The notes under the pieces: model-generated
The model's database searches: none
The model's input: only the letters and a program-made list of their open reading frames with translations
Told to the model about the DNA's origin: nothing
In this document: positions 775-64,000 of the stretch, piece by piece
Layout of the letters: each line of letters opens with the position of its first letter
Numbering within the stretch: the first letter of the stretch is position 1
Translations under genes and position numbers: made by a program
DNA from: Octopus sinensis
Taxonomy: Eukaryota
DNA: 64,000 nt
Reading direction: 5' to 3'
Assembly (NCBI RefSeq): GCF_006345805.1
Contig: NC_043006.1
Location: 66,278,001 to 66,342,000, forward strand

Positions 775-1584
775 CCAGTAGTTTTATTTTTATAGCGTGC
801 TTTCACTTCACTACCGAGCGCAGCTCTGTGTGCCTTAGGTATGTGCTGTGATTTGTTGTGATGCTCTGATGGTTATTGTATGGAAAGTGTTCTGCGTATG
901 ATGTGTGCAGTGCCTGGTAGTGCAATTTTCTGTATGTTATATGTGTTTGTAAGTCCTGTGTTTTTGTTATGTATTTGTCTGAATATTTTTTTATCCTGCC
1001 TAATGCACCTACTATGATAGGAATTGTTTCTGTTTTTAGATTCCACATTCTGGTTACCTCTATTCCAGGTCTTTGTATTTTGAAAGTTTCTCTATTTCTT
1101 TTAGAGACACGTTGTCATCTGCCGGTATTGATACACAATTAGAAAGCATTTTTTCTTCATGGTCTCTGACAACTATATCTGGTCTGTTGGCCTTAATTTC
1201 TCTATCTGTGTGTATCGGCATATCCCAGTGTATGGTTGCCTTCTCGTTTTCTGTGACCTTTTCTGGTATGTGCCTATACCATCTTTTTTCTGTTGTTATT
1301 CCATAATGTTGGCATAGCTTCCAGTGTATGTAGGTTTCAACTCTGTCATGTCTGTGAATATATTCCTTCTTAGCCAGGACTGGGCAGCCAGAGATAATAT
1401 GATATATTGTTTCCTGTCCATCTCCACATATTCTGCAGTTACTTGTTATATTTCTTTTCATTACATGTTTTTGGTAATTTCTGGTGGGGAGGCTTTGGTC
1501 TTGTGCTGCAATTAAAAATCCCTCGTCTCTGCTTTGAGTCCTGAGCTCTTCTACCATTGCTGGGATTTTTCTTTGTCTATTTCT
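775..1584 (-). mobile_element. 5'-truncated RLE non-LTR retrotransposon (R4/Dong-like), 3' end
   Basis: CCHC knuckle CRICGDGQETIYHIISGC, RHD motif, RLE motif RPDIVV...KLSKY and IPIIVGALG; frameshifted; (TAA)n on both sides. Confidence 0.9.
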
Positions 1585-4221: not shown

Positions 4222-4986
4222 CCTTTGCACAGCTTCTAACGCTGGAGATGTATTACAGTGTTAGCTGTTCACTACCAAGGAACTAAGGTACCACCTCTTA
4301 TTTTTCGAGCAGCTTCCAGAGTATTCGAGCAGTTCCAAGCAGTGCTGTTTTCAGCAAGTGTTTTCTTATTGCAGTCCCTATTTGTTGCACGGGCTTCTCA
4401 AGATTTTTGCTCAATGTTCCGAGGGCTCAGACAATTATTGTTTCTACTGTTACCTTCTTCATCGACCACAACTGCTTAACTTTCCAAGCTAACCTGTCAT
4501 ATCTCTCAACTTTTCTTTCTTCCTTATCGCATACCTTGTTGTCAGATGGGCATGCTATATCTATGATCAAGCATAGTTTGTTTTCTCTCTCAAGTAAGAC
4601 TATGTCTGGCTTCCCATTCTCTATCTCATGGTCGCGCTGAATCATAAAATCACATAGGATTTTTACATTTCTATTTTCGTCGATGCTTTCAGGTTTGTTA
4701 TCGTACCAAATTTTTGCCCTGTCAAGTCCATACTTTTTGCAGAGTGTCCAATGGACAAGCCTGGCTATATTGTCGCTGCGTCTCTTACATTCCTTCTGGG
4801 CTAGTGGCGTACATTGGCTGGTAATATGCCATACGGTTTCACCGTTTTGTCCATAGATTCTGCACTTATCACTTTCTGCTGTGTTGTCTTGTCTGTATTT
4901 TATGTAGTTTGTTCTTAGTGCTTGCTCTTGGGCAGCACAAATTAGAGCCTCCGTTTCCGGTTTTAAATCACTTTTAGTCATCCACA
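4222..4986 (-). mobile_element. 5'-truncated RLE non-LTR retrotransposon, second family, 3' end
   Basis: ETEALICAAQEQAL, CRIYG...HITSQC, KPDIVL...IIDIACPSD..KEERKVERY; flanked by (TAA)n at about 4150-4220 and 4987-5077. Confidence 0.9.
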
Positions 4987-5016
4987 TTATTATTATTATT
5001 ATTATTATCATTATTA

Positions 5017-5077
<61 letters not shown>

Positions 5078-5490
5078 GAGGTGCTGAGCTGGCAGAATCG
5101 TTAGCATGCCGGGCAAAATGCTTAGCGGTATTTCGCCTGCCGCTACGTTCTGAGTTCAAATTCTTGCCTTTCATCCTTTCGGGGTCGATAAATTAAGTAC
5201 CAGTTGATCACTGGAATCGATGTAATCGACTGGTCACCCCCCCCGCCAATTTCAGGTATTGTGCCTATAGCAGAAAGGATTATTATTATTATTTTCAAGG
5301 CGGCGAGCTGGCAGAACCATTAGCAGCCGGGCCAAATGTTTAGCGTCATTTCGTCTGTCTTTATGTTCTGAGTTCAAATTCCGCCGAGGTCGACTTTGCC
5401 TTTCGTTCTTTCGTTAATCATTGACATCGAAGTGAACGACTTGACCCCAAAATTGCTGGCCTTGTACCAAAATTTGAAGCCATTAACATT
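5078..5490 (+). mobile_element. Two tandem family-1 SINEs (Meta-domain-like)
   Basis: Head ggcggcgagctggcagaatcgttagc, B-box-like gagttcaaat, central gcctttcatcctttcggggtcgataaattaagtaccag and an (ATT)n tail. Other copies at about 10825-10960(-), 31487-31690(+), 39838-39960(+), 44780-45000(-), 59188-59375(-) and 60715-61050(-). Confidence 0.85.
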
Positions 5491-27589: not shown

Positions 27590-27785
27590 CAGTAATCCGT
27601 CGCCACATCCCGCGATTCACCAATCACGGTTTATTACTTAAGCTTACATCGATTCCTCCATGGTGTTGTTTTGCATTTATAATAAAATAGATATATGCAA
27701 ATTATAAAAATAACAAAAATATACACTACAGTACTGCTTCTAATTCGCGGATTTTTCACTTATCGTGGTGGGGTTTGGAACTTTA
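27590..27785 (+). mobile_element. Truncated Tigger/pogo-like MITE
   Basis: TA-cagtaatcc start; body matches 29339-29591. Confidence 0.7.
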
Positions 27786-27848: not shown

Positions 27849-27918
<70 letters not shown>

Positions 27919-28129
27919 ATTAATCAATATAGGGTGGCAAAAAATTTGCCACCAGCGGCCTAGTGGGAAAAAATTAAATAGTCATAGACCATTTTTAAGT
28001 TCAACATCACAATCAAGGAACGGCCATAATAGGCCATTCACCCACTAGAAATAACAGCCAAAAGCTTCAACCGCAAAATAACATCAATTCCGTAAACCAG
28101 GAGAAAATTAAAAAAACATTTACCTTGTA

Positions 28130-28236
28130 ATTTCTTATACGATGCACCGTTTCATCTACTGTTTAATGGTAAACTAACCTGATTAAATTAAATCAAGCCA
28201 ATCTACCATAGGCCCTTAGAATCATCAGTAAGAAAT
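28130..28236 (-). ncRNA. Type I hammerhead ribozyme motif (A, inverted copy)
   Basis: Perfect 8-bp stem I atttctta/taagaaat, CTGATGA, long stem II, GAAA cggtgcatcG TA. Confidence 0.8.
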
Positions 28237-28418
28237 TTTTTGCCACCCTATATTGATTAATTATGAATTTTCTGGTTAATTCCGTAATGGAATCGGCGGC
28301 TTATATTTATTTGCTGCCGATAATTTGGCGCGAGTGCGATGATTTGAAAATTTTAGGTCAGATATTGCCGAGGCAGGGACGGAAATGCCTCGTGAAAAAT
28401 ATCTGTTCCGACTTGGCT

Positions 28419-28524
28419 ATTTCTTACTGATGATTCTAAGGGCCTATGGTAGATTGGCTTGATTTAATTTAATCAGGTTAGTTTACCATTAAACAGTAGA
28501 TGAAACGGTGCATCGTATAGAAAT
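28419..28524 (+). ncRNA. Type I hammerhead ribozyme motif (A, unit 1)
   Basis: CTGATGA at 28427; 19-bp G:U-rich helix at 28446-28464 / 28471-28489; GAAA at 28502; GTA at 28515-28517. Confidence 0.8.
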
Positions 28525-28890
28525 TACAGGGTAAATGTTTTTTTAATTTTCTCCTGGTTTACGGAATTGATGTTATTTTGCGGTTGAAGCTTTTGGCTGT
28601 TATTTCTAGTGGGTGAATGGCCTATTATGGCCGTTCCTTGATTGTGATGTTGAACTTAAAATGGTCTATGACTATTTAATTTTTTCCCACTAGGCCGCTG
28701 GTGGCAAATTTTTTGCCACCCTATATGATTAATTATGAATTTTCTGGTTAATTCCGTAATGGAATCGGCGGCTTATATTTATTTGCTGCCGATAATTTGG
28801 CGCGAGTGCGATGATTTGAAAATTTTAGGTCAGATATTGCCGAGGCAGGGACGGAAATGCCTCGTGAAAAATATCTGTTCCGACTTGGCT

Positions 28891-28996
28891 ATTTCTTACT
28901 GATGATTCTAAGGGCCTATGGTAGATTGGCTTGATTTAATTTAATCAGGTTAGTTTACCATTAAACAGTAGATGAAACGGTGCATCGTATAGAAAT
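28891..28996 (+). ncRNA. Type I hammerhead ribozyme motif (A, unit 2)
   Basis: Same motif 472 bp downstream: CTGATGA at 28899, GAAA at 28974, GTA at 28987-28989. Confidence 0.8.
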
Positions 28997-29121
28997 TAAT
29001 TACAGGGTAAATTTTTTTTTAATTTTCTCCTGGTTTACGGATTGATGTTATTTTGCGGTTGAAGCTTTTGGCTGTTATTTCTAGTGGGTGAATGGCCTAT
29101 TATGGCCGTTCCTTGATTGTG

Positions 29122-29201
<80 letters not shown>

Positions 29202-29338
29202 TATATCATATATAGATATATAGATATATCATATATATATATATATATATATATATAACAATATGTATATACACGCGCACACATACACACACATACAACA
29301 CATAAATACATACATCTCCATACACACAAACATACATA

Positions 29339-29591
29339 CAGTAATCCTTCGCCATATCGCAGTTCACCTATCGTAGTTCACCTATCGCGGTTTACCAATC
29401 GCGGGTTATTATTTAAGCTTACGTCGATTCCTCCGTGGCGTTGTTTTACATTTATAATAAAATAGATATATACAAATCATAAAAAATAATGATAAAATAT
29501 ACAGTACTGTGCTGTTTCTACTTCGCGGATTTTCACCTATCGCGGGAGGCGGGGTTGGAAAGTAACACCCGCGATAGTCGAGGGATTACTG
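29339..29591. mobile_element. Tigger/pogo-like MITE
   Basis: TIRs cagtaatccttcgccatatcgc / gcgatagtcgagggattactg; subterminal ttcacctatcgc repeats. Confidence 0.8.
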
Positions 29592-39993: not shown

Positions 39994-41173
39994 GTTGGAC
40001 AAAATAATGGAAACACCTACCATCATAATTTTGTAATATCTATAAAACCGTCAAAAGCTTGTTTATTATTAATGTTGCTTAATATGCTTTGCTAAAATTG
40101 CGGTTTCTTTTCAGATATCATAAGAAAAAGGTAATTAAAATTCATTAAAATGACAGATCTATCAGACTTTCAAAGAGGTTAAATTGTTGGCATGTGCTTG
40201 CGTAATGAAAACAACCGAAATGTTTGGTGTATCGAGAAGTACTGTCTCGAAAGTAATGACAACCTTTGAGAAAGAGGGAAAAATCTCCTCGTCGAAACAA
40301 AACTCCGGAAGGAAACCAAAACTTTCAGACAAGGACCGTCGGGCTCTTACGCGAATTGTTAGAAAGCATCACAAAAGTATAACTCATACAATTACTGCAG
40401 AGCTTAATGACCACCTCGAGAACCCAGTTTCCACAAAAACTGTTCGCCGGGAGCTGCACAAAGCTGGATTTCACGGGTGGGCTGCAATCAGAAAACCACT
40501 ACTTTCAAAAACAAACGTTGCAAAGCGTTTAGAGTGGAGTAAAAACCTACAGAATTGGTTCCTAGAGCAGCGGAAGAATGTTTTCTTGGACGAGTCATCC
40601 TTTACCTTATTTCCGTTCACCGGCCGAGTATACGTGTGGAGGCAATCAAAAGAAGCATTTGACCCAGACTGCCTTTTTCCAACTGTTAAACATGGAGGAG
40701 GATCTGGGGGTGGGGGCTATATCTTGGAAATCCGCTGGCCCTATGGTTTCCCTTCATGGCAGAATTAATAGTCAAGGCTATTTAAGAATTTTATCTGATC
40801 AAATTCGTCCTATGGTTGCAAAACTGTTTCCGGAGGGAAACTCAATCATTCAGGATGATAATGCACCAATTCACTCAGCTAAAGTTGTTACTGAATGGCA
40901 CGAGGAACATTCTAGTAAAGTTGAACATCTTATCTGGCCACCACAGTCCCCAGATCTTAATATTATTGAACATTTATGGTACATTTTAGAAAAACAAGCA
41001 AGGAGTCAATATCCTCTACCATCATTACTACAAGAACTGGAGACTGTTTTAGCTGAAGAATGGACAAAATTCCTTTGGAAACAATTCAAATTTTGTACGA
41101 GTCCATACCTCGTAGAATTCAAGCTGTAATTACTGCCAAATAATTTGTTTGAAATTTTAAGGTGTTTCCATTA
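39994..41173 (+). mobile_element. Tc1-like DNA transposon, same family as 18238-19468, frameshifted transposase
   Basis: HTH and GRKPKL region, FLDES, QDDNAPIH, WPPQSPDLNIIEHLW; partial TIRs at both ends. Confidence 0.95.
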
Positions 41174-63461: not shown

Positions 63462-63463
<2 letters not shown>

Positions 63464-64000
63464 CATGTTTATCTACTACCTATAAGATCTTGACATCTAT
63501 TCTAGTAGAGAAAACATATACGTTTATGGAAGAGAATAACCTCTTTCCCACTGAACAAAAAGGATGCAGACGAGGCTCATACGGATGTAAAGATCAGCTC
63601 CTAATTAATCGCATGATACTTGAGAACTGCCATAACAAGCGCAGAAATCTCAGCTCTTCATGGGCTGATTATAAAAAAGCCTTTGGCAGCATACCACATT
63701 CGTGGATTCTGAAATGGCTGGATATTTTCAAAATTTCTCCTGTGATTTCAGATATTTTAAAGTATAATATGTCACTATGGAACACGAAGCTCCAATTATA
63801 TCATTCTAATGGAGTATTGCACTCAAACAACATTAGCATAAACTGTGGAATTTTCCAAGGTGACTCACTTTCACCACTAATATTCTGCATAGCACTAATA
63901 CCACTCTCAAATGAACTGAATAGAACAGGATATGGCTACAAAATTGACAACAAGAAAATTAAGCCATCTATTTTATATGGATGACTTAAAGCTATATGGC
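63462..64000 (+). mobile_element. Non-LTR retrotransposon RT domain (R4/Dong-like), runs off the window
   Basis: EQKGCRRGSYGCKDQLLIN, DYKKAF.SIPHSWI, GIFQGDSLSPL and a frameshifted YMDDLKLY; preceded by (TAA)n. Confidence 0.92.

What the first reader, a model, noticed from the sequence alone, without database searches (positions are those of the whole stretch)
27917..29123. Family A: tandem HHR units predict a 472-nt self-excised, possibly circular RNA
Seen: two identical sense HHRs have predicted cleavage after 28517 and 28989, 472 nt apart, and a third antisense HHR lies in the inverted arm. Stem II is unusually long: a 4-bp base, a 7x7 internal loop and a fully paired 19-bp helix with six G:U pairs. 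G:U pairs only work on one strand, which points to selection on RNA rather than a DNA palindrome. A U-U mismatch closes the core. Sense copies have a 1-nt shorter stem I (tagaaat) than the inverted copy (taagaaat). Inference: read-through transcription releases a monomer that could be ligated into a circle.
Basis: partly seen in the sequence, partly recalled or inferred. Interest (0 to 1): 0.85.

Follow-up and report, generated by a model that had tools for sequence, protein, structure and literature searches.

The report
Two-armed Penelope-type hammerhead retrozyme copy
This is one slightly damaged copy of a roughly 490-base non-coding repeat, present thousands of times in this animal genome, that carries a conserved hammerhead ribozyme motif predicted to cut itself; its back-to-back insertions suggest it is likely pasted by a Penelope-type enzyme, probably from an RNA circle, which makes it a new member of the known animal 'retrozymes'.

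Summary
The three type I hammerheads and the 472-nt spacing are real; the long helix has five G:U pairs, not six. The locus is one insertion of a dispersed family: 3,410 exact core matches, usual unit 484-496 nt. The 472-nt length comes from a 15-nt hairpin-loop deletion whose exact junction occurs only here, once in each arm. The short stem I is a rare lesion (20 matches). Stem I and the base of stem II covary; the long helix shows no two-sided change. Insertions sit in (TA)n as two tail-out arms, one ending about 131 nt and one about 236 nt after the cleavage site (24 of 24 resolved). This is the Penelope 'tail' signature, with a tail near 105 nt against 30-40 published. Copies within one insertion are more alike than copies between insertions, which favours one template. 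Cleavage, circles, expression and the partner enzyme are not shown. Verdict: new member of the metazoan non-LTR retrozymes. This scan already reported what appears to be the same family at other loci.

The parts
27851..27915 (.). (TA)n target microsatellite, left side
   Evidence: (L001 flank)
27917..28236 (-). Inverted arm; its outer end is 'site B', 235 nt after the cleavage site in family coordinates
28130..28236 (-). Type I hammerhead with family-typical 8-bp stem I; predicted cleavage at 28138/28137; the arm begins at the 5' strand of stem I
27933..27953 (-). Terminal hairpin with the private 15-nt loop deletion (copy in the inverted arm)
28233..28236 (.). Inner junction of the two arms (family positions 392 and 205, about 4 shared bases; not a fold-back palindrome)
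   Evidence: L001
28233..29123 (+). Sense arm, 1.9 units; its outer end is 'site A', 131 nt after the cleavage site
28419..28524 (+). Type I hammerhead 1: bulged stem I, U-U closure, extended stem II, near-palindromic stem/loop III; predicted cleavage after 28517
28446..28489 (+). 19-bp distal helix of stem II with five G:U pairs
28518..28989 (+). Predicted 472-nt monomer between the two cleavage sites
28700..28720 (+). Terminal hairpin with the same private 15-nt loop deletion (copy in the sense arm)
28891..28996 (+). Type I hammerhead 2; predicted cleavage after 28989; a 4-nt insertion follows stem I
29122..29257 (.). (TA)n target microsatellite, right side

Best explanation
This is one insertion of a dispersed, non-coding, hammerhead-bearing tandem repeat (a metazoan non-LTR retrozyme) whose two tail-out arms end at two fixed sites inside (TA)n, likely because a borrowed Penelope-like reverse transcriptase-endonuclease copied one RNA template, probably a circle, from both cut DNA strands. 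Shown: the family, the ribozyme fold and its covariation, the two fixed ends, the target, the likeness of copies within an insertion, and the seamless passage through the cleavage site. Inferred: tandem transcripts self-cleave, probably as dimers through the palindromic stem III; the monomer is ligated by a host ligase (from PMC7229834); the enzyme nicks both strands of (TA)n and starts at site A on one strand and site B on the other (from PMC11167929); each cDNA runs a variable number of laps; the inner ends are joined. This particular copy probably cuts less well than the family norm.
For: 3,410 cores genome-wide; 34 loci among the first 100 listed cores, on C1. Helix I has two-sided changes at 4 of 8 pairs and the stem II base at 1 of 5; 21 cells with two-sided change against 4.8 in shuffles and at most 1 in slid controls. 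A sister family keeps the layout with different letters in all three stems. Ends: 24 of 24 two-armed C1 insertions with both ends resolved pair A with B (10 further loci were one-armed or unresolved); among 35 top-hit insertions 25 pair A with B, 1 is an exception, 9 are unresolved or one-armed. Within-insertion distance 0.0073 against 0.0131 between, 0 of 300 permutations; opposite arms 0.0068. Repeated variants occur in both arms 169 times and in one arm only 26 times. The window's deletion junction occurs twice in 2.7 Gb, once per arm. Indels at the cleavage site 20 of 245 against a median of 7.7% per 12-nt window. Arrays reach 17 units. Open RT plus GIY-YIG frames of 775-781 aa exist in the genome.
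Against: No cleavage, circle or transcript was observed. In the one Penelope-like element tested in vitro, cleavage was not needed and uncleaved RNA was the main template (PMC11167929). Eight of nine Xenopus retrozyme dimers did not cleave in vitro (bioRxiv 10.64898/2026.07.22.740005). 69 variants are shared by some but not all units of an array, which one circle alone does not give. In this window the two arms differ at the cleavage junction (TAAGAAAT against TAGAAAT twice). No sequence link to an autonomous element was found in 42 GIY-YIG-selected loci. The assembly is rich in one-base indels, and conversion or polishing between neighbouring copies could even them out.
Confidence: 0.62

Rival explanations
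1. Same element and same borrowed enzyme, but the template is an uncleaved linear read-through transcript of a donor array; no circle is needed and the ribozyme has another job, such as trimming 5' ends.
For: Uncleaved RNA was the dominant substrate for the anole element (PMC11167929). A seamless junction is expected here too. Partly shared variants inside arrays, 69 cases. Weak stem III and a predicted self-blocked core.
Against: Arrays could then only shrink at each round, yet 13- and 17-unit arrays exist. The window's deletion would need a donor with at least two deleted units, and the exact junction is found nowhere else in the assembly, although a circle also needs one donor unit or an RNA-level origin. 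Variants present in all units of an insertion outnumber partly shared ones 252 to 69 (these include subfamily differences).
Confidence: 0.25
2. Short copies insert by a Penelope-like route and then grow and even out as DNA by slippage, unequal exchange or conversion; likeness within an insertion says nothing about the RNA template.
For: This is the route favoured in the discussion of the 2026 preprint. Scattered shared blocks in the 17-unit array (5 of 17 units) look like exchange between units.
Against: Opposite-strand arms are as alike as units of one arm (0.0068 against 0.0074). Both arms often exceed one unit while keeping exact A and B ends.
Confidence: 0.09
3. The tandem or the inversion at this locus is an assembly artefact.
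For: Many one-base indels in the assembly; an N gap 500 nt upstream; no listed contig bridged the deletion or the inner junction.
Against: The same layout recurs with different inner junctions at dozens of loci. Contigs from runs under three organism labels run from site A into TA repeat.
Confidence: 0.04

Closest known systems
Metazoan non-LTR retrozymes (PMC7229834, parts 2-4 of 6 read; bioRxiv 10.64898/2026.07.22.740005, parts 1-3 of 5 read)
   Same: Non-coding tandem repeats with a type I hammerhead in each unit, GC under 50%, thousands of copies, no LTR, a structured monomer, coexistence with Penelope-like elements; U-U closure of stem II as in axolotl HHR_Amex2.
   Different: Unit about 490 nt (150-450 bp in the 2020 paper, within the 51-972 bp range of the 2026 survey). 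Stem II extended by a 7x7 loop and a 19-bp helix. The parts of these papers that I read do not describe two-armed insertions with paired fixed ends. Circles are shown for coral, mussel and axolotl, not here.
Endonuclease-bearing Penelope-like elements and their pseudo-LTRs (PMC8557442 and PMC3846280, passages; PMC11167929, parts 1-2 of 4)
   Same: Partial tandems, an inverted 5'-truncated arm, a 'tail' on one end only, microsatellite or AT-rich targets, ends lying downstream of a hammerhead, two internal start sites for reverse transcription.
   Different: No reading frame. The tail is about 105 nt (about 86 in the sister family) against 30-40 bp. The hammerhead is a full type I, not the minimal form. 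No homology to the 3' ends of the autonomous copies examined.
Dimer-forming type I hammerheads of newt satellite DNA and Penelope-like elements (PMC4209133 and PMC3088659, passages)
   Same: Short stem III with a palindromic loop; the 12-nt stem/loop III self-pairs fully (-17.5 kcal/mol as a dimer against -0.2 as a hairpin), and sister families keep a palindrome with other letters.
   Different: Loop III is 6 nt on a 3-bp stem, longer than the 1-2 bp and 2-4 nt described; stem II is much longer than 4-8 bp.

Membership tests
Metazoan non-LTR retrozyme | Type I hammerhead with the conserved core in each unit | tested here: met
   by motif and covariation, since Rfam gave no hit
Metazoan non-LTR retrozyme | Short tandem units, at least two consecutive hammerheads, many genomic copies | tested here: met
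Metazoan non-LTR retrozyme | Non-coding, no LTR, GC under 50% | tested here: met
   no stop-to-stop frame of 120 aa over 27917-29123; region GC about 38%; primer-binding site and polypurine tract were not searched for
Metazoan non-LTR retrozyme | Stable self-paired monomer | tested here: met
   z -5.66, 0 of 100 shuffles; the antisense strand also scores z -5.26
Metazoan non-LTR retrozyme | Self-cleavage of the RNA | not testable with these tools
   needs in vitro transcription
Metazoan non-LTR retrozyme | Linear and circular unit-length RNA in vivo | tested here: inconclusive
   only contigs were available, which cannot show ends, strand or circles
Non-autonomous Penelope-like element | Tandem plus inverted 5'-truncated arms with a tail on one end, AT-rich target | tested here: met
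Non-autonomous Penelope-like element | 3'-end or pseudo-LTR homology to an autonomous partner | tested here: inconclusive
   no match in 42 loci, but these came from the best 150 of 5,029 candidates and were dominated by one family
Autonomous Penelope-like element | RT plus GIY-YIG reading frame | tested here: not met
   no such frame in or beside 33 C1 loci

The most novel reading that the evidence does not exclude
A Penelope-like enzyme, acting as a dimer, grips one circular retrozyme RNA at a conserved ~105-nt folded head and starts rolling-circle reverse transcription from both cut DNA strands at once, one subunit at each of two fixed sites; the deletion found only in this locus's two arms is a record of that single circle.
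Probability: 0.35. Interest if true: 0.68.

Novelty: new member of a known kind. Interest (0 to 1): 0.4.

Why it matters
How animal retrozymes spread, and how Penelope-like elements make their tandem and inverted ends, are named as open questions in the papers read (PMC7229834, PMC8557442, the 2026 preprint). A young family with about a thousand insertions, two sharply defined ends and a strict one-of-each pairing gives the RNA sites and the template to use in an in vitro assay. The class, the link to Penelope-like elements and the one-ended tail are already published, and this scan has already reported what appears to be this family, so this locus adds mainly one marker: the deletion shared by both arms.

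Tried and rejected
Rfam: no hit at gathering score, four unrelated chance hits at E 6-7. Expression: no RNA holder listed; the runs guessed to be RNA are contigs only and say nothing for or against expression. One guessed-RNA run lacks cover across the cleavage site while two others have it; not used. The lay at 100% likeness listed no contig bridging the deletion or the inner junction; its table was cut, so this proves nothing. Autonomous partner: none found by BLAST or by a profile of four related families in 42 loci. Template jumping across cleaved monomers: no excess of indels at the junction. Fold-back origin of the inverted arm: the inner ends of the two arms usually differ by tens to hundreds of nt and are near-equal in only a few loci, such as L047 and L055. 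Target-site duplications cannot be read inside (TA)n. One search used a mis-registered structure string and is superseded. Literature: five searches listed no paper on a cephalopod retrozyme; I opened no supplements, and those of PMC7229834 could list one.

Full report
Observation. The three hammerhead cores, the 472-nt spacing, the U-U closure, the 7x7 loop, the 19-bp helix and the shorter stem I in the sense copies are all present. The helix holds five G:U pairs, not six. Rfam does not detect the motif, probably because of the long stem II (inference). The region has no long reading frame and lies between two (TA)n tracts. The host is a 2.7-Gb genome; earlier scan notes call it an octopus, which I did not test.

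Family. The 15-nt 3' core occurs 3,410 times, against 1 for the reversed control. The first 100 listed cores fall in 34 loci on C1, which extrapolates to roughly 1,100 insertions (estimate). Of 85 distinct units cut between cleavage sites, 81 are 484-496 nt. The window's unit lacks 15 nt from the loop of a terminal hairpin and two single bases. The exact deletion junction matches twice in the whole assembly, at window 27933-27953 and 28700-28720, once in each arm. The short stem I matches 20 times; the 18 matches outside this locus are all singletons.

Ribozyme. I aligned 28 hammerheads, each a distinct core taken from a different insertion; these were 28 of 37 family rows, and I left out 9, mostly those with indels. 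Under the hammerhead structure 95.8% of cells pair. There are 21 cells with two-sided change against 4.8 in shuffles, from 5 pairs: 4 in stem I and 1 at the base of stem II. The number of such pairs is not above shuffles (106 of 500), and related rows inflate the cell count. The variable core position takes T, A or C. Stem III is invariant partly because I selected copies on it. The long helix shows three one-sided changes from G:U to Watson-Crick, no two-sided change, and one pair broken in 16 of 28 rows, so it is kept but loosely. A sister family at about 75% identity keeps the layout with other letters, including a shorter A-U-rich distal helix. Stem/loop III self-pairs as a dimer far better than as a hairpin in three families, as described for dimer-active hammerheads (PMC4209133). 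Folding predicts that the core is partly blocked in the monomer, more so in the window's sense copies than in most family copies tested. This is a model result.

Insertion anatomy. Insertions are tail-out pairs of arms in (TA)n. Outer ends fall at 128-136 (A) or 231-241 (B) nt after the cleavage site; inner ends vary. The chance under independent choice is 6e-8. Of the other 10 loci, 5 end at A and 5 at B. Among 35 top-hit insertions, 25 pair A with B, one pairs A with an end at 182 in a GT repeat, and 9 are one-armed or unresolved. The window is B-left, A-right. The sister family also has two ends, about 86 nt apart, and four related families align with their ends in register. Penelope-like elements are known to form partial tandems with an inverted arm and a 30-40 bp tail on one end (PMC8557442; PMC3846280). 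The anole enzyme cuts and extends both DNA strands at AT-rich sites and starts at two internal RNA sites that define the tail (PMC11167929). The match is close, with a longer tail here.

Template. Among 168 copies of at least 200 nt from 36 insertions (two diverged side segments left out), distance is 0.0073 within and 0.0131 between insertions, 0 of 300 permutations; opposite arms are as alike as one arm. Over 66 loci, 252 variants are in all covering units of an insertion, 69 in some, 333 in one; repeated variants are in both arms 169 times and in one arm 26 times. The cleavage site is crossed without extra indels. This fits one continuous template for both arms. A circle explains long uniform arrays and the window's deletion most simply. 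An uncleaved multimer from a uniform donor is not excluded, nor is later conversion or polishing. Against a single clean circle: the partly shared variants, and the different junction letters in this window's two arms.

Partner. A GIY-YIG search found open RT-endonuclease frames of 775-781 aa; their zinc-finger linker suggests the Neptune clade (recalled motif, consistent). Their 3' ends run into (TA)n, and some carry short hammerhead-like motifs. None of 42 loci matched the retrozyme. The partner is unidentified.

RNA data. No holder is on record as RNA. Contigs under three organism labels hold the family, and some pass from site A into TA repeat, which supports the end but not expression.

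Comparison and verdict. All testable features of a metazoan non-LTR retrozyme are met; cleavage and circles were not testable. The link between retrozymes and Penelope-like elements is argued in PMC7229834 and the 2026 preprint. Earlier notes of this scan describe what appears to be the same ~490-nt family and the paired ends at other loci; I had reached the paired ends before reading them (note). New member of a known kind; interest 0.4.

Noticed in passing
L075:745-1215 (-); L114-L143: Sister retrozyme family of about 465-480 nt at about 75% identity, older (about 90% between copies), with the same hammerhead layout and two ends about 86 nt apart.
   Followed up: partly
L151:6970-7630; L150:6270-7370; left flank of L042: Two more related two-armed families whose ends align with sites A and B; one sits at the AT-rich 5' edge of an intact RT-endonuclease element, and a family A copy in L042 directly abuts the end of the other.
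   Followed up: partly
L148:674-4375; L151: Penelope-like element with an upstream 479-aa frame with no Pfam match before the RT-GIY-YIG frame; its 3' end has a hammerhead-like motif with an altered core.
   Followed up: no
L059:2949 onward: A retrozyme copy is cut inside its hammerhead by a LINE-like fragment, and the two-armed insertion appears duplicated locally with the same inner junction.
   Followed up: no
L150:6037 (+): Another long-stem-II hammerhead of an unrelated-looking family, ending in (TA)n about 35 nt after the predicted cleavage site.
   Followed up: no
window 1060-1584, 4427-5155, 63463-63984; 40154-41129: Fragments that read like non-LTR retrotransposon proteins, and a broken Tc1/mariner-like transposase (recognised by eye, not tested).
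   Followed up: no
window 27604-27710 and 29379-29485: Two 87% identical copies of another short repeat flank the insertion at a distance; probably separate dispersed repeats.
   Followed up: no
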